From: Bdellovibrionales bacterium
GTDB lineage: Bacteria > Bdellovibrionota > Bdellovibrionia > Bdellovibrionales > JAGQZY01
Reading direction: 5' to 3'
Assembly (NCBI GenBank): GCA_964230645.1
Contig: CAXRHT010000001.1
Span: forward strand, 224,001-288,000
DNA: 64,000 nucleotides
Under the pieces are notes generated by a model. That model had not been told where the DNA came from and ran no database searches. It saw only the letters and a list, made by a program, of their open reading frames with translations. How positions within the stretch are numbered: the stretch's first letter is position 1; each line of letters starts with the position of its first letter. Position numbers and translations under genes: made by a program. Below are positions 5,398 to 58,200 of this stretch, one piece after another.

Positions 5398-5431
5398 AAC
5401 TCCTCCTACGAACCTTCTCAAAAAAGACTGG

Positions 5432-5601
5432 CCTGTGCCTTCCGTAGGAAACAATTAGAATGTCTTTGAGTACAGGCTCGAGCAGCGAGCATTGCGTATC
5501 TTGGAGCGCGACATGCAATGGCGCGATCCGGGAGACGAAATGCACCCGCATGCGTGCCTGTGCTCAAAGACATTCTAATTGTTTCCTACGGAAGGCACAG
5601 G
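5432..5601 (+). repeat. Long-stem hairpin element, family I (copy A)
   Basis: 46-bp inverted arms (5432-5477 and 5556-5601, one T.G pair) around a 78-nt core homologous to 54403-54480. Confidence 0.9.
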
Positions 5602-5612
5602 ACAGGCCACAA

Positions 5613-27395: not shown

Positions 27396-27396
27396 A

Positions 27397-27555
27397 GTGA
27401 TCCCGAGAAATGTTCATAGTCATCCTGAGATTTATTCATAGTCATCCTGAGACTTGTTCATTGTCATCCTGAGCGAAGCGAAGGATCTTAGGTCTTTCGC
27501 TTCGCTCAAGACGACATGCTCTCATCCAAGAAGACAGGCTTTCATCCGATATGAC
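27397..27555. repeat. GTCATCYTGAGC palindromic (REP/RPE-like) element with tandem terminal duplications
   Basis: Core palindrome at 27462-27516; 22-nt units start at 27397, 27419 and 27441; 20-nt units end at 27535 and 27555. Confidence 0.85.
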
Positions 27556-30280: not shown

Positions 30281-31714
30281 ATGGGATTTGCAGCGGAAAA
30301 AAACGAAGAACAGCAGTTAGTAAAAGACCAAATCAATCTTGAGAAAAGACGATTGGGACGATCCGAACTTATGGTTTCACCCATATGTTTCGGAAGTCTA
30401 CGCCTCACTCCTGAAAATGGCATTTACAAAGAAACTCTTTACCAAGCTCTCAACAGTGGGATCCAGTTTATTGATACCAGCGGAGCTTACGGTAACGGAG
30501 CCTCAGAAATTGTTATTGGGGAAGCTTTAAGAGAATACGTTGGTCAGTATCCCGATAAAAAAGACTCCATCGTACTTTGTACGAAAATGGGTATTGTACA
30601 AGGCGCCACTTTACAAGAATTACAAATGCGCTCCCAAATGGGTCATAAAATCCCCGGGGCCTACAAGATCAGCGAACGTATGAGCTACTGCCTCACTCCA
30701 GAATACATTGAATCACAATTAAGCCTTTCTTTAAGACGACTGCAAACCGAACGCGTAAGTCTCGTTCTTCTGCAAAACCCAGAATATCTTTTAAAGATTC
30801 TAGGATCAAAAAAAGAGTTCACCACTTATCTTAAAAGGGCTTTTGAGCACCTAGAAGTGGAAGTGGCTAAAGGAAGAATCTCTCACTATGGAATTAGTTC
30901 GAGTGCCTTTTTGAAAAAAGAGATTGCGCCTGATTTCCTTGATATTGATGAGGTGGTGGCGATTGCCGAATCGATTTCCAAGAAACATCACTTCTCAGTG
31001 GCCCAGGTTCCTTTCAACTTATTTGAGTCAGGACCTCTATTCACTAAGAATCAAAACAAAAGATCCTTTTTTGAAGCGGCCCACATGCACGATCTTGGGG
31101 TACTCACCTGCCGTCCTCTCACAAGCCATCATCGCGATAAGGTTCATCATTTTATCACCTTCCCTGGAAAAGACGAGGTTTCTATTAAAGGACGCCTACA
31201 TACCTTATTAATGGAAGTTGTCGAGCTTGAAAAAGAGCTGTTTAAAAAGATGCCTGAACACAAAGACCTCAAATGGGGACACCTTCTTCGGAACAACCTC
31301 AATAAAATTAGCGACTGGTGGAAGTGGAATCAGTACTTACAAAAAAACATACTTCCTAGTATGCAAGAAAGTATCGAGAAATTACCCCACTCTCCTGAGT
31401 GGAACAATTGGAAAGTGAACTACGTCAATCGCATGCACTCACTTTTTGGCTTAGTTACTGACAGTTTACAAGGGATTGCGAACCTACGCACCAATCAAAT
31501 CTGTCACTACCTCAATCAGGAGTGCGCTTCCCTTGAGGACGAGACTAAGCTTTCTAATAAAGTGACAAGGCTTTATCTTTCTCTCCCGGAGATTCACTCG
31601 GTGGTTATGGGGCTATCTCATCCTGACCATGTGGAAGATCTTTTGGAACTCGGAGAGATTCCTGATACGCAGACCACACTGCAAATTCTTAAGAAAGTTA
31701 AGATGCATTTCTAG
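30281..31714 (+). CDS. Aldo/keto reductase family protein (long form)
   Basis: LGRSELMVSPICFG, IDTSGAYGNGASE, TKMG and SLRRLQ motifs. Confidence 0.85.
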   Translation: MGFAAEKNEEQQLVKDQINLEKRRLGRSELMVSPICFGSLRLTPENGIYKETLYQALNSGIQFIDTSGAYGNGASEIVIGEALREYVGQYPDKKDSIVLCTKMGIVQGATLQELQMRSQMGHKIPGAYKISERMSYCLTPEYIESQLSLSLRRLQTERVSLVLLQNPEYLLKILGSKKEFTTYLKRAFEHLEVEVAKGRISHYGISSSAFLKKEIAPDFLDIDEVVAIAESISKKHHFSVAQVPFNLFESGPLFTKNQNKRSFFEAAHMHDLGVLTCRPLTSHHRDKVHHFITFPGKDEVSIKGRLHTLLMEVVELEKELFKKMPEHKDLKWGHLLRNNLNKISDWWKWNQYLQKNILPSMQESIEKLPHSPEWNNWKVNYVNRMHSLFGLVTDSLQGIANLRTNQICHYLNQECASLEDETKLSNKVTRLYLSLPEIHSVVMGLSHPDHVEDLLELGEIPDTQTTLQILKKVKMHF

Positions 31715-31745: not shown

Positions 31746-31888
31746 GAAGGCCTCGGTTGCCTTCGTTTGGCGGGAACATTCGCTAAAATAAACCGCGGCT
31801 CCTGCCTAACCTAAATTTCGCCCTCTGGGCGAAAACGCGTCCGCTTTTAGGAGGTTCATTTTAGCGAATGTTCCCGCCAAACGAAGGC
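31746..31888 (-). repeat. Long-stem hairpin element, family II (copy C)
   Basis: 36-bp arms (31759-31794 and 31853-31888); shares GAAGGCCTCGGTTG, GCTCCTGC and CGCGTCC motifs with 41037-41203. Confidence 0.85.
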
Positions 31889-31928
31889 TATCGTGGTTCG
31901 AACGTGTCCTTGATCAAATTAGCTTTTT

Positions 31929-32582
31929 TTATAGCTTGTTCATTAAAATTTTCTTTACTTGTTTCTTTAAATTCGGAAGAATTTCTTTTTCGAACCAGGG
32001 GTTCTTTTTAAGCCAGATGTTGTTTCTTGGGGATGGATGAGGAATTGGGAGATAGTTATTCTTTAAATGTTGCTTCCAGTTTTTTACGTTTTCTGTGAGA
32101 GTTTTTGATTCGTTTTTTAATATGTGGTCTTGGGCGTATTTTCCTATGAGAAGGTAGAGTTTGGGTTCTTTAAGGGCTTTTGACAAGGGAGGGTCCCATA
32201 TTTTTCGGCATTCCTTTAATGGCGGGAGGTCGCCGGAGTCTCCTTTGCCGGGGTAGCAAAAGGCCATGGGGAGAATGGCGAAGTTTGAAGGTTTGTAGAA
32301 TGTTTTTTCTGTCACTCCTAGCCAATCTCTTAGTCGTCTTCCGCTGGGGTCATCGAAAGGAATTCCTGAATTGTGAGCTTTGAAACCGGGGGCTTGGCTG
32401 ATGAGTGCGATTTTGGAATTCGCTTCAAAGCTCACAATGGGCCTTGGGGCTAAAGGAAGAAACTTTCTGCAGTGAATGCAGTTTCTTATTTTTTTAAGTA
32501 GCTCTTGGTCGGTAGTGATAAAAAAGCTCCGCTTTTTGTGGGTTTTATGCAACGAATTCCTTATTCTTGAGGAATACAGCAC
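31929..32582 (-). CDS. Uracil-DNA glycosylase family protein
   Basis: SQAPG, PFDDPSGRRLRDWLG, CYPG, IGKYAQ and HPSPRN motifs. Start is uncertain. Confidence 0.9.
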   Translation of the reverse strand: MLYSSRIRNSLHKTHKKRSFFITTDQELLKKIRNCIHCRKFLPLAPRPIVSFEANSKIALISQAPGFKAHNSGIPFDDPSGRRLRDWLGVTEKTFYKPSNFAILPMAFCYPGKGDSGDLPPLKECRKIWDPPLSKALKEPKLYLLIGKYAQDHILKNESKTLTENVKNWKQHLKNNYLPIPHPSPRNNIWLKKNPWFEKEILPNLKKQVKKILMNKL

Positions 32583-32702
32583 ATTCCACCCTTAATTATC
32601 AATAAATATTCAAAAAATATGCAACTTCCAGCGATCCTTTTAGTCGGAGGATCTGGCAGTTTTGAGAGTAAGAATTATTAACTGTTACAAAAGGAAATTA
32701 TC

Positions 32703-33287
32703 ATGAAGAATTTTTTAACTGCGGCTCTTGTGACTAGTGGACTGTTTTTTCTAACACCCTCTCAGAGCAAAGCTGTAGCCGCTGACGATGGTGGGCTTTT
32801 TTTAGAGCCTGGAGTGACTTATCAATTTAATACCGACGATCAACAGGATCTGCGCGGTCTTGGACTTATGTTCCGTTTGGGGTACCACATTGATGAACTT
32901 ATCTTTCTTGGCGCCGATGCTCGTTACAGTTTTCTCGAATACGGTAACGACACGGCTAATTTTGAAAGTGATGCCACCTCATACAATCTTGCCCCTGTGG
33001 TCGGAATTCAAATGAGAGACATTGGTTTAAGAGCTTGGGGAAGTTGGGTTGTTTTAGGAAACCTTGATCCGGATTCTAGCAATGGCACTGATGTTAATTT
33101 TGAAGAAGCTCAAGGTTTTCGTGTCGGTGGCGGATATCATATCTACAACTTTTCTGTGAATCTTGAATACGAGCGAATCAATTACAACGATACCACTTTT
33201 AACTCTAATATTATTACCAATCCGGATGCCTACGACCTAGAGTCGGAAGCATGGATTATAAGTGTTTCGGCTCCTATTGAGATTTAG
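32703..33287 (+). CDS. Outer membrane beta-barrel protein
   Basis: Signal peptide; alternating amphipathic strands such as GLFLEPG and VNLEY. Confidence 0.75.
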   Translation: MKNFLTAALVTSGLFFLTPSQSKAVAADDGGLFLEPGVTYQFNTDDQQDLRGLGLMFRLGYHIDELIFLGADARYSFLEYGNDTANFESDATSYNLAPVVGIQMRDIGLRAWGSWVVLGNLDPDSSNGTDVNFEEAQGFRVGGGYHIYNFSVNLEYERINYNDTTFNSNIITNPDAYDLESEAWIISVSAPIEI

Positions 33288-33312
33288 GACACGGGTTGAA
33301 ATTGTAATCTTG

Positions 33313-33350
33313 AACCCACTGAGTTTAACCCAGTGGGTTTTTCTTTTTTT
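33313..33350 (+). terminator. Intrinsic terminator
   Basis: AACCCACTG...CAGTGGGTT followed by a T-run. Confidence 0.75.
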
Positions 33351-33356
33351 TGGAGA

Positions 33357-33465
33357 TGTCATCTTGAGTATCGTACTGTCATCTTGAGCGTCAGCGAAAG
33401 ATCTTTCGCTATCGCTCAAGATGACATTATGAGGTTCAAGATGATAATATGAGGTTCAGGATGAC
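33357..33465. repeat. GTCATCYTGAGC palindromic element with 20-nt tandem terminal duplications
   Basis: Core TGTCATCTTGAGCG...CGCTCAAGATGACA at 33377-33426; extra units at 33357, 33435 and 33455. Confidence 0.85.
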
Positions 33466-33531
33466 TTTTTTAGCTAGTGGAGTTAGTCTACCCCTCTAAT
33501 CCAACGACTACCTGATATTTGTGGAACTGAA

Positions 33532-34491
33532 ATGGATGATTTAAAAGAATTTTTGACAGAACTTTCCGTGGTGCCCTACTCCCTTTGGATTTGGTTTACC
33601 ATTGGTGTTTTAATTCTTCTGGTTATAGACCTTGCGCTCTTTGGTCATTCCAATAAAAAGATGCACTGGAAGACGGGGCTCATTGAAAGTATTCTTTGGA
33701 TTAGCGTGGCTTTAGGTTTTAACCTCTGGTTTGCCTATCAATTCGGCTGGAAGCTGGGATCAGAATTTTTAACCGCGTACGTGGTCGAAAAAAGTCTGAG
33801 TGTGGACAATCTTTTTGTCATTCTTCTAATTTTTCAATCTCTTCGGATCCCCGACCGCTTTCAGCACAGAGTCCTTTTTTACGGAATTTTTGGAGCCGTT
33901 GTCTTCCGTGCGATTTTTATCTTAATTGGAGCTAAGATCATCCACCATTTTCACTGGGTTCTTTACATCTTTGGAATCATCCTGGTCTATTCCGCTTATA
34001 GTTTGATTACTCGCAACAAAGTAGAGCACGAAAAAGAAGAAAGTAAGCTCTTAAGAAAGTTACGACGAGTTCTCCCCACTACCACTCTCACAGAAAGCGA
34101 AGACTTCTTCGTTCGCAAAGAGGGACGTCTCATGGTGACGCCTCTTTTTCTCGCTCTTGCGACCATCGAGATCAGCGACATCTTTTTTGCCGTGGATTCG
34201 ATCCCGGCTGTTTTTGCGGTGACCAACGATGCCTTTGTAGCCTTTGCCTCTAATATCTTAGCCATCCTTGGACTCAGAGCTCTGTTTTTTGTGCTCGCCG
34301 ATGGAGTATCAAAACTCAAGTATCTTGAAGTGGGCCTTGCTTTTGTATTGGGTTTTATCGGAGTAAAAATGCTCATCGAAGAGTGGCTTCATATTCCAAG
34401 CTGGGTGTCTTTGATGGTGATTGCTGTAATTTTTATCACTACGGGAATCATGTCTCTTCGAGCCAATAGCATCGAAAAAGATACCCTCTAA
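33532..34491 (+). CDS. TerC/Alx family membrane protein
   Basis: EKSLSVDNLFV, QHRVLFYG, DIFFAVDSIPA and SNILAILGLRAL motifs. Confidence 0.93.
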   Translation: MDDLKEFLTELSVVPYSLWIWFTIGVLILLVIDLALFGHSNKKMHWKTGLIESILWISVALGFNLWFAYQFGWKLGSEFLTAYVVEKSLSVDNLFVILLIFQSLRIPDRFQHRVLFYGIFGAVVFRAIFILIGAKIIHHFHWVLYIFGIILVYSAYSLITRNKVEHEKEESKLLRKLRRVLPTTTLTESEDFFVRKEGRLMVTPLFLALATIEISDIFFAVDSIPAVFAVTNDAFVAFASNILAILGLRALFFVLADGVSKLKYLEVGLAFVLGFIGVKMLIEEWLHIPSWVSLMVIAVIFITTGIMSLRANSIEKDTL

Positions 34492-34514
34492 AATCGAATC
34501 TCGAGTGAGTCGGA

Positions 34515-35807
34515 CTAGATTTCTCGCAAATAGCCCCAGCTATGAAGCCGGTCACTGTCCTCGGACCAGCGATCCCCAATATCTTTTCTAAAGTACATAT
34601 TGGGAATCAAAATATTTTTAATCCGGTTATAGGCCTGGCTCTGGGCTTGCTTCATCGTGGGGCCACTCCCGCAGACAACCAAAACCACTCCCACAGATCC
34701 AGCCACAAACCACTGATCTCCAAGCTGCTTCACATCCTCGATGTGAACTCCTTCCCTATTGGGCTTTTTAAAAACGATAGCCGCATTTTTTGAATAGGAA
34801 TCAAAGGTTTTTTTATCTTCAAAAGGAAAAGGCGGCATGCAAAGCCTCACTCCAATATGGAAACCCTGTTTGGTGCGAAGTTTTGTTTTCTCTCCGCTGG
34901 CCAGTTCATAAAAGAATTTTCCCATAGGGGTCAGCATACTTTCTTGCTGGATGCTGATAGTTGGGTACCCGAAACGGGATGTGAACTCTAAAGGATAAAC
35001 CCCTTTGTGATTCACAATACAGTTAAGATCTATATACCCCACAAACCCCTCTTCTTTAAGTTTAGGCGCCATGCGGGAAAGTGTGAGGTTAAACAAGCGG
35101 TTGGGCCCGCTCCAGAACATGGCTGTCCCCATCTCCCCGGTAGGAGGTCCAAAATTTCCAGGGAAAAGTTTTTTGTGTTCAAAGTTAATATTGATAGGGA
35201 GAACAAACTCTTCTCCGTTAAAAAAAGCGCCCACGGCCACCTCAACCCCTTGCACTCTTTTTTGAAGTTGAAACTGTTTTATCTTTTCTGAAAAGGCTTT
35301 TTTATAGGCCTCAAGCATGCGAACCAGGTCACTGCCATCATCCTCCTCTCCAACAAAAAGTAGCCTTTTGGTGTTTTGAGCTTCCCCACTGGGCTTAATC
35401 ACATAGGAAGCGGGATTCTTTTTCACATATTCAATGGCGTCGTCAAAGGAGGTGAAATCTTGATAGGGAATAATTTGGATATCGTATTTTTTTAACTCTT
35501 CTTGCCCAAAGGATCTGTCGTCTTCGAGTTTATCTGTATAGGGTGTGCCACCGATGACTTTTTTGCCTTTTTTTCTGAGCTCACTGGCAAGCTCGCCATG
35601 ACCCAGCACATCGTCAAAGACAATCACATCGGCCCAATCCACATGATCGCGCCAGGCATCAACTTTTTCAACAAAGCCGTCAGAGATCTCTCGCTCTGAC
35701 TCAGAATCAATGGAGTAGCGAACACTGTGCCCCTCTTTTTGAACTTGCCATGCAATGTCCCCAATAAGACCGGACCAAGAAACAAATAAGAAATTGTGCT
35801 TTTCCAT
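34515..35807 (-). CDS. PurD-like ATP-grasp ligase (non-canonical phosphoribosylamine--glycine ligase family)
   Basis: VIKPSG, FEHKK, TGEMG, LEFTSRFGYP and YFRKDIG motifs; lacks the canonical N-terminal GSGGREH. Confidence 0.75.
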   Translation of the reverse strand: MEKHNFLFVSWSGLIGDIAWQVQKEGHSVRYSIDSESEREISDGFVEKVDAWRDHVDWADVIVFDDVLGHGELASELRKKGKKVIGGTPYTDKLEDDRSFGQEELKKYDIQIIPYQDFTSFDDAIEYVKKNPASYVIKPSGEAQNTKRLLFVGEEDDGSDLVRMLEAYKKAFSEKIKQFQLQKRVQGVEVAVGAFFNGEEFVLPININFEHKKLFPGNFGPPTGEMGTAMFWSGPNRLFNLTLSRMAPKLKEEGFVGYIDLNCIVNHKGVYPLEFTSRFGYPTISIQQESMLTPMGKFFYELASGEKTKLRTKQGFHIGVRLCMPPFPFEDKKTFDSYSKNAAIVFKKPNREGVHIEDVKQLGDQWFVAGSVGVVLVVCGSGPTMKQAQSQAYNRIKNILIPNMYFRKDIGDRWSEDSDRLHSWGYLREI

Positions 35808-35881
35808 TATAAAACTCCCCTCTGAAACGGCTGTTAGGCTTCAGGGAATTTTATACATGAATTTTTGCTGAATGTAATGTT

Positions 35882-36523
35882 TTATGCCGCCTTTATATGG
35901 CCAGGAAACTGTATAGGGTCTTTCGCCTTTTCTTTTTCCAGTTTTTTATGGGCTGCGATAAAGATGTTTACAAACTCCTCATCGAACTGAGAGCCTGCAA
36001 ACTTGCGCAATTCTTTATAAACGACAGGCATCGGCAAACCTTTGCGGTAGGCCCGTGTTTGAGTCATAGCGTCGACCGTATCGGCAATGAGAATCAAACG
36101 AGAAATATGAGGAATTTGCTCCCCTTCTAACTTTAGGGGATATCCTTTACCATCGACTCTTTCGTGGTGGTGAAGAACAGCCACCTGCACTTCTCTAAAA
36201 AATTCGGAGTGCTCAAGGGACTCTAGCATTTCAGCGCTAAAAAGAGAGTGCTTTTTCATAAGCTCATATTCATCATCTGTTAGTTTTCCAGGTTTATTTA
36301 AAACACTTAGAGGAATTTTTGCTTTACCGACGTCATGCAAGAGACCTGCAAATTGAGCCAAAAGTTTTTCGTAGTCACTCAGTTCTGCTGCTTCCGCTAT
36401 AAAAACACAGAGTTCAGAAACCCTGACACAGTGTTTGTAAGTTTCAAGATCGTGCTCTTTGAGCTCCTCAAGAATTTCGTTCACCTGAACGAGTAGCGGC
36501 TGTGGAATAGAACTCCAGATCAT
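35882..36523 (-). CDS. HD-GYP domain phosphodiesterase
   Basis: HCVRV, LHDVGK, HHERVDGKGYP and ADTVDAM-RAYR motifs. Confidence 0.93.
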   Translation of the reverse strand: MIWSSIPQPLLVQVNEILEELKEHDLETYKHCVRVSELCVFIAEAAELSDYEKLLAQFAGLLHDVGKAKIPLSVLNKPGKLTDDEYELMKKHSLFSAEMLESLEHSEFFREVQVAVLHHHERVDGKGYPLKLEGEQIPHISRLILIADTVDAMTQTRAYRKGLPMPVVYKELRKFAGSQFDEEFVNIFIAAHKKLEKEKAKDPIQFPGHIKAA

Positions 36524-36596
36524 AAATAGACTCCCCTCATTGACCCCAAACGGTTACCATTCTCTTTGTTCAAAGAGACGACCACCTACATTGATA

Positions 36597-36623
36597 GTAT
36601 CGGCCTAGGTCTAGCGGAACTAA
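36597..36623 (-). promoter_or_regulatory. FliA-type promoter
   Basis: TTAG-N15-GCCGATAC upstream of the HD-GYP gene. Confidence 0.6.
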
Positions 36624-36775
36624 AACACATTTGTACAATTTCTCATATTGAGTCCTTTTTACTAGAGACTTGAAATGAATTTTATTAAATTTATTGGCTC
36701 TTAGTCCAATTCAATCAAGTCGGGTCTCAAAAAGACCCAATCTTTTCGCTAGAATAACCTCTGAAAGGTGGTTTC

Positions 36776-37936
36776 ATGGAAGAAAAACAATCGACCTCAA
36801 TCAGTGGAAAATATGTTATGGGAGTTCTCGTTGCCGTGGTCTTAGGGATTGGGGCTTATGTTGTCTCTGATCAACCCACACAGGCGACCAAGGGAAAAAG
36901 AAACATAGCAGAATTTTTAAATCCCAATCAACACTTAGCAAGACTGACCCATGCCGATCGTGTTCGACTGCGTGAAAATATGCTCGCTCGTCAGTGTTAC
37001 AGCGGGACAGTGATTGATCAAAATAGTGAGTCCTGTGGAGCTTTTAACGATTGGCCCAATGGAGATCCCAGCTTTAATGATGATCCTCTTATGAATATGA
37101 TCCCAAGACAAACGCGTGTGAACGTGGATGTTGTTTGTAACGAAGCCACAGGACAATTTCAGACTAGAGTTTACTTTCCAAATGTTTGCCCTCTGACTCG
37201 CGACTCTCGCCCTACGGGTGATTGTGGAGAGTCCTATTTTCAAAATCCCTACACTCAAAACCGTGACACGCCCTTTTCGACAACACCAGATAACTGGTTG
37301 ACCTCCCCTGGTGTTTTTAACCATAACGATGTCACCAACGTGACAAGCAGAAACCAACCCGGTCGTGAGAGTGATTTCAATATAGATCCTAACACCGATT
37401 TAAATTCTTTTGACTATAGTTCAAACTTGGGTGCGGGAGCGCAAGCGGGTGCGGAACTTCACATTGTCAGTAGCGCAAAAGAATGGGAAGGCGCTGCGAT
37501 GACCAACACTCTTTGGCTCCGAGGAGACTACGCCATTCATGGAGCTTGTGAAGGTTACACCGATGATCTTCAATGTGAGTTCAGTGGTCGTCCCGCCTCA
37601 AGAGGTTGCATTCGTCTTGAACCAAACAATGCGCGCGCTCTTTATAATCTCGTCAGACGTGTCGGTACACGCCATGTCCGCTATCAATTTCACGGTTATG
37701 GTCGTCCTCTTGCAAGATTGGGTGGGCGCCCCGCTTGTTCTTTAAGCCAAGAAGAGTGGGATAGACATCAAGCCGGTCAACCCGTGCTTGCCGAAACTGA
37801 GGCTCAAGTAGAGACTCGCCAGCAAACAGCAAGACGGGAGAGCCGTCAATCCTACAACTGGTTTCAACGGGCCTGGAGAGGGATTAGTAACTTCTTTAGA
37901 GGTAATAGTCGCAACCAGCGTGGTTCTGCTCAATAA
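36776..37936 (+). CDS. L,D-transpeptidase (YkuD family) with insertions
   Basis: N-terminal TM; YAIHGA...GRPASRGCIRL catalytic His/Cys motif. Confidence 0.85.
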   Translation: MEEKQSTSISGKYVMGVLVAVVLGIGAYVVSDQPTQATKGKRNIAEFLNPNQHLARLTHADRVRLRENMLARQCYSGTVIDQNSESCGAFNDWPNGDPSFNDDPLMNMIPRQTRVNVDVVCNEATGQFQTRVYFPNVCPLTRDSRPTGDCGESYFQNPYTQNRDTPFSTTPDNWLTSPGVFNHNDVTNVTSRNQPGRESDFNIDPNTDLNSFDYSSNLGAGAQAGAELHIVSSAKEWEGAAMTNTLWLRGDYAIHGACEGYTDDLQCEFSGRPASRGCIRLEPNNARALYNLVRRVGTRHVRYQFHGYGRPLARLGGRPACSLSQEEWDRHQAGQPVLAETEAQVETRQQTARRESRQSYNWFQRAWRGISNFFRGNSRNQRGSAQ

Positions 37937-37956
37937 TTAACTTCTCTATTTTTCAT

Positions 37957-37988
37957 AAAAAAAAAAGCTCCTGAACGGAGCTTTTTTT
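37957..37988. terminator. Bidirectional intrinsic terminator
   Basis: A-run-GCTCC-TGAAC-GGAGC-T-run. Confidence 0.8.
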
Positions 37989-38007
37989 GTATCAATTGTA
38001 AGATATC

Positions 38008-39258
38008 TTATCGACTTGTTGGACGATCGTAGTTACCGCCCTCACTTTCCTCTGGGCAGCAAAGACCTCTTTGGCTACAAAGTTGAGCCTGTTGTGAGCG
38101 AGACTTGCTAGAACAGATTACTGGAGTGTAGTCCACAGGATCGTTGGGCTCTTGTGGTTCTGGACGATCAGGACAGCATACCCCTCTCTGTGCACAAAGC
38201 TGCGCTTGTCCTTGAGGAGTTTTGCTAGAACAGATGATCGTAGGAATCTCAAGAGGATCGTCACTTGTTGGTGGTGGATAATGGGGTTGTGGCTGAGGAC
38301 GTGGAGTATCAGGCACTCGGCAACCATTGTAGCCAGTAAAACAAGTGGATGTCGCCATACCTTCAAGCATGTTCCAACCACCAGACTGACAAGACATTTG
38401 CTTTCTATGGATACATTTACAAATTTGAACCGCTTGTGGACGGCCACCCATACGAGAAGAATATTGTCTTACACAACGCTCATCGTAACGATGTTGAGTG
38501 TTGGTGTCGGTATTGAATTTACCATTATCACGGAAGTTAGGTCTAACCATATCCAAACGACGACGAAAATCACGAGGCATACTGCGTGTACTACACATGC
38601 GACCGCCGCGGAAATTACTGCGGTAAGGTCTCAATTCATCAGCACTGACTGAATAGCGGTTGCCACCGGACTGTACAGTGATCGGACGAGCGGTGTACTC
38701 ACATCGAGGAGCATTGGCGGCATTGGCTTCATTAGCAGCAATCGCTAATCCCCCGGCAACAAGTCCGAAAGCTAACAAAGGAGCAATCGCGTGGGCTTCA
38801 TTAACGAAAAGAGCGTCATAAACTCCTGCCACTGAATTCTTTTTAAGAGCGGCGACGTTTTTCTCATGGTAGTCTTTAAAACTCATTCCGTCTGTCCACG
38901 CAATGAGAGTTCCGTTGAGTTTGTAAGAACGACCGTTAGCGTCCATATCAGAGATAATGGCTTGCACTCTTCCATTGATACGAAGAGCCACTTTTCCGCC
39001 GGTACGGGGTTCAAAGCGCCAAAGCCATTTATCAAATTGCTTTTTGTTTTCCTTGTAAAGCTTATCCAAATATTTGTGATCCGCACGGCTTTCAAAATGA
39101 CCTTTGTACTTCATTACAAGTGCTTCAAGATTTGACTCGTAGTTTAGATAGTCAATACCTCGGCGAACGTTCACGTTTAAATCGGCGTTCGCAAAACTTG
39201 TTGAAAGCAATAGAACCAATTGGATAAATCCGATGATTACATTTCTTAGAGATTTCAT
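38008..39258 (-). CDS. Secreted Cys-rich hypothetical protein with two C-terminal repeats
   Basis: Signal peptide; internal hydrophobic segment; two ICSSK-x4-QAQLC-x-QRG-x-CCP repeats. Confidence 0.75.
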   Translation of the reverse strand: MKSLRNVIIGFIQLVLLLSTSFANADLNVNVRRGIDYLNYESNLEALVMKYKGHFESRADHKYLDKLYKENKKQFDKWLWRFEPRTGGKVALRINGRVQAIISDMDANGRSYKLNGTLIAWTDGMSFKDYHEKNVAALKKNSVAGVYDALFVNEAHAIAPLLAFGLVAGGLAIAANEANAANAPRCEYTARPITVQSGGNRYSVSADELRPYRSNFRGGRMCSTRSMPRDFRRRLDMVRPNFRDNGKFNTDTNTQHRYDERCVRQYSSRMGGRPQAVQICKCIHRKQMSCQSGGWNMLEGMATSTCFTGYNGCRVPDTPRPQPQPHYPPPTSDDPLEIPTIICSSKTPQGQAQLCAQRGVCCPDRPEPQEPNDPVDYTPVICSSKSRSQQAQLCSQRGLCCPEESEGGNYDRPTSR

Positions 39259-39570
39259 ATCCCTTCCCTTTGTTGAAAGAAAACTTATAATGCCAGATCG
39301 GTTGTTAAAATCTGAGACTTTAGTTCCTACCGACTGAAACTAGACTATCATCCCTGAATTGCTAAAAGAAAGCATTCAGGGGCTAGACCTGGACCCCTAC
39401 GATCAGCCTCGACTTAGGGAAGTGCTTCAGCCCCAATGAGTGACGCAGTTGAAGTTAAATTTCTTCCTAGATCATCGAACGGAAAACTTCCCCCTGAGGC
39501 CCTGGAAGCTACATTCACCTCTTTAATGAGTGTAAAATCTAGGTTGGTGCTCAACAAGGGGTTTATAAGA

Positions 39571-41025
39571 GTGTTGCATTCATTATTACCAGTTCGCTTC
39601 TTTTTTGTTTCGATTCTCATTTTAGGATCGACTTCCAAAGCCTCTCTTCGTCTAGAGGAAGGCTCCTATGCCAATAGAACTCATATTGATGCTGCGTTAA
39701 GAAGAGCCAATCTCAACTTCACCTACAGAGGTTGTGACCAAACCCCTGATCCCCGCCGCGTGCAACTCACTCCCGACCCCAATTGCGCGCGAAGCACTCC
39801 TCAGGAGACTGGAACCTCCGGAAATGCCCATGGTCGCACAAGCCTTGAAGGACGAGTGACTGCCACCTACGAAGACCAAACCGAATGTGAAGACAACGAA
39901 CAAGTCACCAGACGCATTCACACCAATCATTCTTTAAGAAACATCTACGAACATTTTGAACGCCTGGGCTGCCGCCCTACTCACATTGTGATTGAAGACA
40001 GCGATCCCGAGTTTTTAAGTCAAGTCAGACAAAGCACTCAAGATCCTAGTCTTTGTGAAATTCCTGAGACTCGCATTTCAAAACCGGGTTTTCCCACCGA
40101 CGAACATTCTTTTTTCAATATGAGTGCTAATGATGAAGGCTTTAAAATCGGCGGACACACCGAGTATAAATTCAATCACGACACAGGCTCTTGGTGCGTA
40201 CGATACATCCCTAACAACACTGGAAGTTGCGAACAGCCCCAAGACTGGCCAGGCCCCATTCCAATGCTTTACTGCACGGACACCACCCCTAACAGCTGCC
40301 AGCAAGGCCGAGGGAACTATCACGTTAAGGGAACGGTTTCGCTTATGCCCAATGGACAAGCGCAAATCCGTGCTATGAACCGAACTTTTTCCAGCTACGA
40401 GGCTGTGTTTGAAGCTCAGAAAAATGGGGAACTCACAAATACGATCACTTCGGCTGGACGCATTGATTTTCAAACCTGGAGAAAACCCAACGGGCTTGTT
40501 CGCAGTATCGTACGCTCTTACGACCAAGACACACCCGGCGCGAACCATCAAAGAGCGATTAACTTTTTTGCCCGTAATGTTTTTGGGATTGGGGTGACAA
40601 GCAGTTGGTGTTCGGATGAGCACTGCTTTGCTGATGTTAGCCAGGAAAGGCTTCGCCCCTCTCGCTGCGAAGATAACCCCAGTGTGAATCTCCACAATGG
40701 AGGAAGTGGGAACTTGTGTCACTCTTGCATTGGAATTCTTCCGGGACATTGTGCGATTGAACGCCAAGAAGTGGACTACTTGCGCTCGAAGCTTCGCCAA
40801 AACTCCCAGTTTACCATTCTTGATACCGGCGAGTACAAAATGGGTCAAAACGTTGAAACCGGTCTCATGGCCAATTTCAACCGTATCGTTACCACTCCTC
40901 AAAATAACCGCGGCTGCTTTGAGGGCCACTCCCCTTCTTTTGATCATGTCTTTGATCCTGGGGAAGTGGAACGTAATGGGAGCACTGAGGGGCGAACGAT
41001 TCAGAACAAAAAAGAATCGCTTTAG
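39571..41025 (+). CDS. Secreted Cys-rich hypothetical protein, possible atypical L,D-transpeptidase-like C-terminus
   Basis: Signal-like segment ending STSKA (start probably 39571 or 39574 rather than 39436); VNLHNG...CHSCIGI. Confidence 0.6.
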   Translation: MLHSLLPVRFFFVSILILGSTSKASLRLEEGSYANRTHIDAALRRANLNFTYRGCDQTPDPRRVQLTPDPNCARSTPQETGTSGNAHGRTSLEGRVTATYEDQTECEDNEQVTRRIHTNHSLRNIYEHFERLGCRPTHIVIEDSDPEFLSQVRQSTQDPSLCEIPETRISKPGFPTDEHSFFNMSANDEGFKIGGHTEYKFNHDTGSWCVRYIPNNTGSCEQPQDWPGPIPMLYCTDTTPNSCQQGRGNYHVKGTVSLMPNGQAQIRAMNRTFSSYEAVFEAQKNGELTNTITSAGRIDFQTWRKPNGLVRSIVRSYDQDTPGANHQRAINFFARNVFGIGVTSSWCSDEHCFADVSQERLRPSRCEDNPSVNLHNGGSGNLCHSCIGILPGHCAIERQEVDYLRSKLRQNSQFTILDTGEYKMGQNVETGLMANFNRIVTTPQNNRGCFEGHSPSFDHVFDPGEVERNGSTEGRTIQNKKESL

Positions 41026-41036
41026 GGTGCAAAGAA

Positions 41037-41203
41037 GAAGGCCTCGGTTGGCATTCAATCCTGTTTTGCTGGAGTTTTTAAGACACCTATTTTCATAGGC
41101 ACAGCTCCTGCTTTGCTGGCATCACCCTGCGGGTGAGCGCGTCCCGCTTGCCAGAGCCTACGAAAATAGGTGTCTTAAAAACTCCAGCAAAACAGAATTG
41201 AAT
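41037..41203 (-). repeat. Long-stem hairpin element, family II (copy D)
   Basis: 48-bp arms (41053-41100 and 41156-41203, two mismatches) around a 55-nt structured core. Confidence 0.88.
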
Positions 41204-41245: not shown

Positions 41246-41998
41246 TTAGAGGTAAATTTTCTTCATTTCTTCGAATTCGCGGACGACGTCTTCTCGGATT
41301 TGTTCTTTTACTTTTTTCATTTCTTCGATGGGGACTTTGGCCATGTCGACAGGTGGAAGGAATCTTACGCCCACTTTTTTTGTCCAATTTGTTTTGTTAA
41401 TCAGGATAGAGCCTTTTGGTAGCACGCGGTCCATTCCGCAGATGACCACGGGGACGACGGGCATTTTTGCGTTGATGGCGAAGATGAAGGGGCCGGATTT
41501 GAATTTTTTTATCTCATCACCTTCGCGTCGTCCACCCTCTGGAGCTAAAGCGAAGGCTTCGCCTTTGGCGACTCTTTCTTCAGCTTTTCGGTAGACTTCT
41601 ATTACTTTGCTTCTGTCTTCTCTTGTGATTGGTAGAGTTCCGGCTAACTCCATAGCTTTTCCGAAAAGGGGAATTTTGAAAAGGGAGGCTTTGGCTCCGT
41701 AGCGGAAACTTTTAGGTGAACAGACAAATAAAAAGGGAATGTCCATATGACTGCAGTGGGTGAATAAAAAGAGGAAGCCTTTGTTTTTTGGGACATTTTC
41801 TTGGCCTTCGATTTCAGGGATGACTCCGCTAAGTTTTACCATCGGGTAGCACCACATGGGGCCTACGGCGAAATCCACTATTTTTCTGGGAGCTCTTAGG
41901 AGTAAAAGACTAATCACTATGATCGAGCAATAGCCGGTGTGGAGGGCTACGAAAAATGCGAGAAAAAAAGAGCGAAGAAAAGCTAGGATTTTTAGCAT
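41246..41998 (-). CDS. plsC: 1-acyl-sn-glycerol-3-phosphate acyltransferase
   Basis: HCSHMD (HX4D), AKASLFKIP, PEGGR and FKSG motifs. Confidence 0.88.
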   Translation of the reverse strand: MLKILAFLRSFFLAFFVALHTGYCSIIVISLLLLRAPRKIVDFAVGPMWCYPMVKLSGVIPEIEGQENVPKNKGFLFLFTHCSHMDIPFLFVCSPKSFRYGAKASLFKIPLFGKAMELAGTLPITREDRSKVIEVYRKAEERVAKGEAFALAPEGGRREGDEIKKFKSGPFIFAINAKMPVVPVVICGMDRVLPKGSILINKTNWTKKVGVRFLPPVDMAKVPIEEMKKVKEQIREDVVREFEEMKKIYL

Positions 41999-54344: not shown

Positions 54345-54538
54345 CATTTTGTGATCGAGTTCTTCGAATCTGCTTAGGATTTTGGGAGAATTTCGGAGGG
54401 GCTCGAGCAACGAGCGCTGCGTATCTTGGGCTGCGACATGCAATGGCGCAGCCCGGGAGACGAAGTGCACCCGGGTGCGTGCCGCTCCGAAAGGCTCCCA
54501 AAATCTTAAGCAGATTCGAAGAACTCGATCACAAAATG
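54345..54538 (+). repeat. Long-stem hairpin element, family I (copy B)
   Basis: 58-bp arms (54345-54402 and 54481-54538) around a 78-nt core, 66/78 identical to 5478-5555. Confidence 0.9.
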
Positions 54539-58093: not shown

Positions 58094-58100
58094 CAGGGGA

Positions 58101-58185
58101 AGATCCTTCGCTCCGCTCAGGATGACAGTGGGCTCCTCTGGATGACAGTGGGCTTCTCTTGATGACAGTGGCTCCTCAGGATGAC
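58101..58185. repeat. Half GTCATCCTGAGC element with three tandem terminal duplications
   Basis: AGATCCTTCGCTCCGCTCAGGATGAC, then AGTGGGCT...GATGAC units at a 20/20/19-nt period. Confidence 0.85.
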
Positions 58186-58200
58186 CTTGAGCTACTCATT

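What the first reader, a model, noticed from the sequence alone, without database searches (positions are those of the whole stretch)
31746..41203. Hairpin element family II: same architecture with fully covarying helices (copies at 31746 and 41037)
Seen, read on the minus strand where all three arm mismatches become G.T pairs: long stem, then a 6-bp helix (CCTAAA/TTTAGG in C, CTGGCA/TGCCAG in D), a conserved bulge AGCGG(G)ACGCG, a 3-nt-loop hairpin (TTTCGCCC/GGGCGAAA versus TCACCC/GGGTGA), conserved GCAGGAGC, the return stem and an identical tail CAACCGAGGCCTTC. Paired regions differ while unpaired motifs are kept. Copy D closes its loop with GGCTC...GTGCC, as family I does. Both copies sit between convergent genes. 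Inference: a structured ncRNA or ssDNA element related to family I; conserved unpaired motifs suggest protein recognition or catalysis.
Basis: partly seen in the sequence, partly recalled or inferred. Interest (0 to 1): 0.72.

Follow-up and report, generated by a model that had tools for sequence, protein, structure and literature searches.

The report
TwoAYGGAY-like foldback repeat of predatory bacteria
The two hairpins belong to a multi-copy repeat of Bdellovibrio-type bacteria, a conserved three-hairpin head with GGA loops on a long stem that changes freely but stays paired; it resembles the known TwoAYGGAY motif, yet its loops and placement suggest it likely spreads and acts as folded single-stranded DNA rather than as an RNA gene.

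Summary
Copies C and D are 2 of 25 family-II copies in this genome, beside 28 family-I copies. A covariance model finds the head in 45 of 151 genomes of the order, up to 75 per genome. Across 123 copies, 36 of 37 pairs covary.

The closest known family is TwoAYGGAY (Rfam RF01731). Both have GGA loops, a poorly conserved long stem, divergent doublets and REP neighbours. One relative passes the Rfam cut-off; no copy in this genome does.

Evidence for DNA-level action:
- The apex loops are DNA-type GNA/AAA triloops.
- There is no promoter or terminator signal.
- The folded strand is usually the template strand of the nearest gene.
- Arm ends sometimes copy host tRNA or gene ends.

Evidence for RNA: the last loop is A(N)GGA(N), the CsrA motif, in 120 of 123 copies.

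No dedicated mobiliser was found. In one lineage 28 of 47 copies flank a multi-copy HTH-HNH nuclease gene. This scan reported similar elements earlier on other DNA. Verdict: new variant of a known kind, function unproven.

The parts
31746..31903 (-). Copy C, subfamily IIb element, from the 5' foot to the 3' tail
   Evidence: CM score 85.8 bits
31853..31888 (-). C: 5' arm of the long stem (P1)
31846..31851 (-). C: P2 5' strand; its partner is 31810-31815
31837..31844 (-).
31816..31834 (-). C: P4 hairpin, 3-nt apex loop (AGA here; GNA or AAA in most copies)
31797..31806 (-). C: P3 hairpin with an AGGA loop (A(N)GGA(N) motif)
31759..31794 (-). C: 3' arm of the long stem
31746..31759 (-). C: 14-nt tail, identical in D
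41037..41203 (-). Copy D: IIa head with a IIb-type tail
   Evidence: CM score 90.1 bits
41156..41203 (-). D: 5' arm of the long stem
41101..41155 (-). D: head. P2 41149-41154/41116-41121, L1 41139-41147, P4 41122-41136 with a GCA triloop, P3 41103-41112 with an AGGA loop
41053..41100 (-). D: 3' arm of the long stem
41037..41050 (-). D: 14-nt tail, identical in C
30281..31714 (+). Aldo/keto reductase gene. Its stop codon faces the 3' end of C; the same gene end carries a IIa copy in G002 and G008
31929..32582 (-). Uracil-DNA glycosylase family gene on the 5' side of C
39436..41025 (+). 529-aa ORF with no Pfam match; its stop codon faces the 3' end of D
41246..41998 (-). Acyltransferase gene on the 5' side of D
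5428..5605 (+). Family I copy: same long-stem architecture, rod-like head, GCA apex, no GGA loops
54345..54538 (+). Family I copy

Best explanation
C and D are copies of a non-coding, multi-copy repeat related in design to TwoAYGGAY, which likely spreads as a selfish element by folding as single-stranded or cruciform DNA whose three-hairpin head would be recognised by a nuclease or transposase supplied in trans. Shown: the conserved, covarying head; a long stem whose sequence drifts while pairing is kept; DNA-type apex loops; dispersal to gene 3' ends in a preferred orientation; nesting with REP halves, mini-palindromes and, in one lineage, HTH-HNH genes. Inferred: the arms are kept paired and sometimes lengthened by template switching during replication, and their role is to let the head extrude. 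Also inferred: an HUH-, Ssn- or HTH-HNH-type enzyme copies the element to new sites. The A(N)GGA(N) loop may additionally bind CsrA when the folded strand happens to be transcribed.
For: 1) Apex loops. P4 is a triloop in 104 of 121 copies with a callable loop (GNA 67, AAA 23, one GAAA tetraloop). The family I apex is GNA in 24 and AAA in 2 of 26. Terminator-like hairpins of the same genome, a crude RNA-level control, show 23 triloops and 0 GNA among 158. d(GNA) loops with C:G closure are especially stable in DNA, and the RNA counterpart of the related GCGAAAGC mini-hairpin is much less stable (passages of PMC3201870 and PMC13037366). L1 is often a GGA triloop closed by any of the four Watson-Crick pairs. 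2) Strand bias. G.T outnumbers A.C 46:10 here and 93:32 in other genomes, as on the active single strand of attC (passages of PMC5027507). 3) No transcription signals. A -10-like box lies upstream in 9 of 145 copies against about 20 in shuffles, and a U-tract follows the stem in 3 of 145. 4) Orientation. The gene at the 3' side is on the opposite strand in 62 of 90 copies (median 15.5 nt), 72 of 90 in a partly overlapping second set and 33 of 53 here (not significant alone). The nearest mRNA therefore usually carries the complement, without GGA loops. 5) Mobility signs. Copy number is 1 to 75; sites are empty in congeners; the same gene end holds different subfamilies; IIb/IIc copies are fused to CGTC-type REP halves. 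6) Arms. In 7 orthologous pairs from G002/G008, 33 arm pairs changed on both sides to another Watson-Crick pair, 15 on one side, 4 otherwise and 164 not at all, while the core kept 408 of 427 positions. Arm ends include inverted copies of 3-8 nt of four tRNA 3' ends and of 16-18 nt of two coding ends. 7) Candidate enzyme. In G129, 28 of 47 copies lie within 1 kb of an HTH-HNH gene, against about 3% of the genome.
Against: No dedicated mobiliser was found. This genome has no reverse transcriptase, no Ssn-type GIY-YIG and no full-length HTH-HNH gene. Its two RAYT loci carry no copy. HTH-HNH loci from other genomes carry none at E<0.01 (0 of 23), and in G006, G011 and G016 the genes are not adjacent to the listed copies. 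Among 111 neighbouring proteins there is no transposase, only a XerC-like integrase. No target duplication was seen. There is no preference for the lagging-strand template. Many copies are old and stably inherited, which fits host function as well as mobility. The P3 loop varies exactly as the CsrA motif A(N)GGA(X) does, and this is better explained at the RNA level. G.T bias alone does not tell DNA from RNA.
Confidence: 0.5

Rival explanations
1. The element is a multi-copy small RNA, a Bdellovibrionota TwoAYGGAY variant, that titrates the CsrA dimer with two GGA loops; the long stem protects it or marks it for processing.
For: P3 is A(N)GGA(N) in 120 of 123 copies, matching the Csr/Rsm framework (passages of PMC4005645). 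L1 carries GGA in 66 of 123. csrA is in this genome and in 128 of 151 phylum genomes. CsrA binding has been proposed for TwoAYGGAY (passages of PMC4333381 and bioRxiv 10.64898/2026.09.22.753630). AT-rich spacers of divergent doublets could hold promoters.
Against: L1 is TGA in 56 of 123 copies. There is no promoter or terminator signal. Apex loops are DNA-type. Orientation is mostly antisense to the nearest gene. Family I has the same architecture and placement with no GGA loop. csrA is too widespread for co-occurrence to mean anything.
Confidence: 0.27
2. Whatever its origin, the element is now a domesticated chromosome site: a DNA structure bound by a host protein (as BIMEs bind gyrase, IHF and Pol I), or an mRNA 3'-end hairpin, at the ends of convergent or highly expressed genes.
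For: Copies persist at the 3' ends of glmS (G006, G019, G024), groEL (G000, G017), ettA and the aldo/keto reductase gene across species or genera. The core is under purifying selection, with 0 differences in 78 nt at the C site in a related organism whose flanking gene differs by about 10%. Convergent context holds for 38 of 86 and 56 of 90 copies. BIME binding partners are described in passages of PMC3184786.
Against: Close relatives lack the element at the same sites or altogether. A plain mRNA hairpin does not need a strand-specific head.
Confidence: 0.14
3. The element is retro-copied: a reverse transcriptase primes at a nick behind a gene end, copies the head, and fold-back synthesis makes the second arm from target DNA.
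For: Fixed orientation to gene ends; inverted copies of host tRNA and coding ends in the arms.
Against: No RT in G000, G011 or G016 and none beside any copy. The inner 30 nt of the arms and the outer termini are shared among paralogues, so arms travel with the element.
Confidence: 0.06
4. The head is a self-cleaving ribozyme or deoxyribozyme.
For: A multi-helix junction with conserved unpaired bases.
Against: No Rfam ribozyme hit; the conserved bases are interchangeable loop motifs.
Confidence: 0.03

Closest known systems
TwoAYGGAY motif (Rfam RF01731; PMC2864571 table row; PMC4333381; bioRxiv 10.64898/2026.09.22.753630)
   Same: Two GGA-loop hairpins on a common helix and a long, poorly conserved outer stem. 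Large copy-number variation. Divergent doublets (24 of 26 doublets in three genomes; 68% in Pseudomonas). REP sequences at the 3' side of some copies. Proposed CsrA binding and unresolved mobility.
   Different: An extra hairpin (P4) with a GNA/AAA triloop sits between the GGA loops. The loops are mostly not AYGGAY (15 of 123 at P3, 3 of 123 at L1). Window and genome copies do not score on RF01731. Bdellovibrio is not mentioned in the main text of the 2026 preprint (supplements closed).
REP/BIME with RAYT, and NTS/SRM with the Ssn nuclease (PMC11893778)
   Same: Strand-specific DNA hairpins dispersed in intergenic regions near gene ends, in clusters and doublets. In G129 the hairpin-gene-hairpin layout around HTH-HNH recalls NTS-ssnA-NTS.
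   Different: REP and NTS units are 20-50 nt with conserved stems and a GTAG or CGTC tag. Here the unit is 130-200 nt, has a variable stem and a branched head, has no tag, and no RAYT or Ssn gene is flanked by it (1 of 22 Y1 loci has a copy).
Integron attC sites (PMC5027507)
   Same: Structure conserved over sequence, G.T pairs enriched on one strand, fixed orientation behind a gene.
   Different: attC keeps its boxes in the stem and varies the tip; here the tip is conserved and the stem varies. No IntI-type array; the neighbours are housekeeping genes.
Bacterial MITEs (Correia, ERIC, Nezha; PMC3184786)
   Same: Non-autonomous 100-200 nt foldback elements with filled and empty sites.
   Different: MITEs have conserved terminal inverted repeats and target duplications; here the outer arms are the least conserved part and no duplication was found.

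Membership tests
TwoAYGGAY (RF01731) | Reaches the Rfam gathering score (43 bits) | tested here: not met
   C and D: none at gathering; 0 matches in G000 at E<=1; 0 of 8 further G000 loci. Among relatives, L119 scores 49.1 (1 of 12 loci), L102 33.6 and the L500 copy 30.1.
TwoAYGGAY (RF01731) | Two sequential hairpins on a common basal helix | tested here: inconclusive
   Two GGA-type hairpins are present, but L1 and an added P4 sit on P2 while P3 sits outside it.
TwoAYGGAY (RF01731) | AYGGAY in both terminal loops | tested here: not met
   AYGGAY in 15 of 123 P3 loops and 3 of 123 L1 loops; neither window copy has it.
TwoAYGGAY (RF01731) | Long, poorly conserved outer stem; variable copy number; divergent doublets | tested here: met
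Csr/Rsm sponge RNA | A(N)GGA(X) in hairpin loops | tested here: met
   P3 in 120 of 123 copies; L1 has GGA in only 66 of 123.
Csr/Rsm sponge RNA | Own promoter and terminator | tested here: not met
   a simple sigma-70/sigma-54 and U-tract test of limited power.
Csr/Rsm sponge RNA | Expressed and binds CsrA | not testable with these tools
   Needs RNA-seq and binding assays.
REP-RAYT / SRM-Ssn | Short conserved hairpin with a GTAG or CGTC tag | tested here: not met
   the CGTC-type halves beside IIb/IIc copies are a separate repeat, also found alone at about 90 clusters.
REP-RAYT / SRM-Ssn | Cognate RAYT or Ssn gene flanked by the repeat | tested here: not met
   1 of 22 Y1 loci and 0 of 6 GIY-YIG loci carry a copy.
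MITE | Conserved terminal inverted repeats and target-site duplication | tested here: not met
   Identity beyond 30 nt from the head is at chance level; flank repeat length 3.8 against 3.9 shuffled in 39 copies.
attC | Conserved R/L boxes and an integron integrase array | tested here: not met
   No conserved boxes in the arms; one XerC-like neighbour among 111.

The most novel reading that the evidence does not exclude
TwoAYGGAY-type 'RNAs' and these Bdellovibrionota repeats are one class of ssDNA/cruciform selfish elements. A modular folded head (GGA-loop family II, or rod-like family I) sits on a sequence-free stem renewed by template switching, and is mobilised by an unstudied HTH-HNH nuclease family that, in the G129 lineage, is still caught between arrays of the hairpins. 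The CsrA-type loop would then be a host-factor handle or a later exaptation.
Probability: 0.15. Interest if true: 0.8.

Novelty: new variant of a known kind. Interest (0 to 1): 0.5.

Why it matters
How TwoAYGGAY-like elements multiply, and whether they are RNAs at all, is stated as unresolved in a 2026 preprint. This family gives three handles on that question: DNA-type apex loops with a within-genome control, a strong orientation rule at gene ends, and a named candidate nuclease. It is also a clean natural case of stems that stay perfectly paired while drifting at about the genome-wide rate, which warns that covariation in long stems need not mean RNA function. If the RNA reading is right instead, it is a candidate Csr antagonist in a phylum where my search found none described (6 papers listed, passages of one read).

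Tried and rejected
- Arms as guides: their best matches elsewhere in the genome average 29.3 bits for 42 arms against 27.6 for shuffles.
- Phages and plasmids: no match with copy D. Two viral-contig pattern scans gave 5 loci, none with arms.
37 of the 80 loci scored on my model; 35 have Bdellovibrionota-type titles and 2 are titled 'Proteobacteria bacterium'. The pattern was built from these copies, so it says little about other phyla.
- Sequencing runs: no RNA holder listed, which is no evidence on expression.
- HTH-HNH as general mobiliser: 26 of 33 metagenome loci carry copies, but nearly all encode proteins 73-100% identical to the G129 one and are not independent. The 53% relative has none. 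Other lineages place the gene beside other repeats.
- Its fold search gave no match at E<=0.001; ParB and HNH rows were weak. NCBIfam IscB hits were far below cut-off.
- DNA between 20 close pairs (19 divergent, 1 tandem) is AT-rich and unrelated; six pairs hold an ORF of 200 aa or more, none recurring.
- Empty sites in G003 and G005 were too diverged to fix junctions.
- No replication-strand rule for family II: 14 against 11.
- Literature searches for a Bdellovibrio description listed none; only listings were seen for most papers.
- Counts from the phylum and order scans are capped at about 27 scored candidates per genome.
Full report
Observation. The two hairpins are real and as described. 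Read on the minus strand, each is a long stem (36 bp in C, 48 bp in D) carrying a head: helix P2 encloses a small hairpin L1 and a hairpin P4 with a 3-nt loop, followed by hairpin P3 with an AGGA loop. Rfam gives nothing at gathering score in the window.

Extent. Profile searches of the genome find 53 copies at E<0.001: 28 of family I and 25 of family II (IIa 11, IIb 4, IIc 10). A covariance model built from 52 copies hits 13 of 151 phylum genomes and 45 of 151 order genomes, including 18 of 20 in the own family. Five genomes scored in depth hold 75, 47, 40, 26 and 9 copies. A family I model hits 19 of 151 order genomes. Named records that score carry Bdellovibrionota-type titles in 35 of 37 cases.

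Structure. On 123 model-aligned copies, 93.8% of cells pair and 36 of 37 pairs change on both sides; slid controls pair at 36-50%. The alignment was fitted to the structure, so these figures lean towards it. P3 is A(N)GGA(N) in 120 of 123 copies. L1 has GGA in 66 and TGA in 56. P4 is a triloop in 104 of 121, GNA in 67 and AAA in 23. The family I apex is GNA or AAA in 26 of 26 copies here and a triloop in most of 27 copies elsewhere. Terminator-like hairpins of this genome have 0 GNA loops in 158. Passages of PMC3201870 and PMC13037366 state that d(GNA) loops are exceptionally stable in DNA and that the RNA counterpart of the GCGAAAGC mini-hairpin is much less so. Passages of PMC4005645 give A(N)GGA(X) as the Csr/Rsm motif. 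The head therefore carries one DNA-type signature and one CsrA-type signature on the same strand.

Arms. Arms match nothing else in the genome. Similarity between paralogues fades from the head outwards and is at chance beyond 30 nt, although IIc copies share nearly whole arms. [quoted passage not shown] A contig of a related organism has the C core with 0 differences in 78 nt, the same downstream gene and unlike arms. Four copies end inside a tRNA 3' end, with 3-8 tRNA bases repeated inverted in the other arm; two copies repeat 16-18 coding bases. Template switching can create and maintain such stems (abstract and opening of PMC8794818); that it does so here is my inference.

Placement. The gene at the 3' side of the element points towards it in 62 of 90 copies, median gap 15.5 nt, and in 72 of 90 in a second set that overlaps the first and holds orthologues. 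Kin are not independent, so the p-values overstate. Doublets are divergent in 24 of 26 cases, median 561 nt (125 listed copies of 141). There is no promoter or U-tract signal and no target duplication. Some gene ends are occupied across species or genera, at times by a different subfamily: the C site holds IIa in G002 and G008, and ettA holds family I here but IIa there. Congeners have empty sites. Several sites that hold family II in G008 lie at CGTC-type REP clusters here.

Search for a mobiliser. This genome has no RT, no Ssn-type GIY-YIG and two RAYT genes without copies. Among 419 neighbouring ORFs the only recurring non-housekeeping family was a protein of about 270 aa with a helical N-terminal part and a C-terminal HNH domain, all from G129. 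There 28 of 47 copies lie within 1 kb of such a gene and 19 of 34 such genes have a copy, against about 3% expected. The cassette has a conserved left-end motif, ends at its stop codon, and in two loci is itself flanked by inverted duplications of about 39 and 70 bp. The family matches 27 of 41 relatives (some only through the HNH domain), but 0 of 23 loci from other genomes carry a copy at E<0.01, and G000 lacks the full-length gene. It is either the lineage's mobiliser or, more simply, a parasite of hairpin repeats.

Comparison. An earlier scan note pointed to TwoAYGGAY, and I tested it. One family member passes the Rfam cut-off, two score 30-34 bits, and copies in this genome score nothing. 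Passages of the 2026 preprint describe for Pseudomonas TwoAYGGAY the same extended stem, copy-number swings, divergent doublets and downstream REP arrays; they propose Csr sponging and leave mobility open. PMC4333381 proposed CsrA binding (passages); PMC2864571 lists the motif in one table row. The element works like a TwoAYGGAY/REP-type repeat. C and D are not RF01731 members by score or by loop sequence.

Verdict. Real, widespread in one order, and a new variant of a known but unexplained kind. I favour a DNA-level selfish repeat (0.5) over a CsrA-sponge RNA (0.27) and a domesticated chromosome site (0.14). Interest 0.5.

Noticed in passing
L280, L281, L291, L357 (G129 lineage) and L292-L321: A multi-copy HTH-HNH gene cassette (up to about 34 per genome) with a conserved left-end motif about 265 nt upstream, ending at its stop codon and sometimes flanked by inverted duplications. 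It sits beside different hairpin repeats in different lineages and looks like an undescribed selfish element of Bdellovibrionota.
   Followed up: partly
G000 C1:142907, C1:733510, C3:487007, C3:591787: A palindromic mini-insert of about 40 nt occurs at only four places in the genome, always inside a family IIc or family I head.
   Followed up: partly
window 27396-27554, 33359-33444, 58100-58197: CGTC-type REP repeats with tandem 20-22-nt units; about 150 matches in 90 clusters genome-wide, with no Ssn-type gene found.
   Followed up: partly
G000 C2:546817-546973: An inverted duplication that begins inside the 3' end of tRNA-Ala and encloses an AT-rich spacer with no head.
   Followed up: partly
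G000 C1:640963-641138 and C2:424904-425013: A family I copy and a degenerate IIa copy lie inside long ORFs.
   Followed up: no
L499:1501-1659 (G007): A two-hairpin, long-stem element closer to canonical TwoAYGGAY (37.9 bits) that my family II profile does not detect.
   Followed up: no
L302:2752-2913 (G023): A 51-bp arm hairpin with yet another head, about 400 nt downstream of an HTH-HNH gene.
   Followed up: no
L322, L327, L335, L336 (G006): Divergent pairs of the element bracket single AT-rich accessory genes, like small cassettes.
   Followed up: partly
L493 (G006): A small stand-alone GIY-YIG gene (about 80 aa) follows a tRNA and a hairpin pair; it carries no family I or II copy.
   Followed up: no
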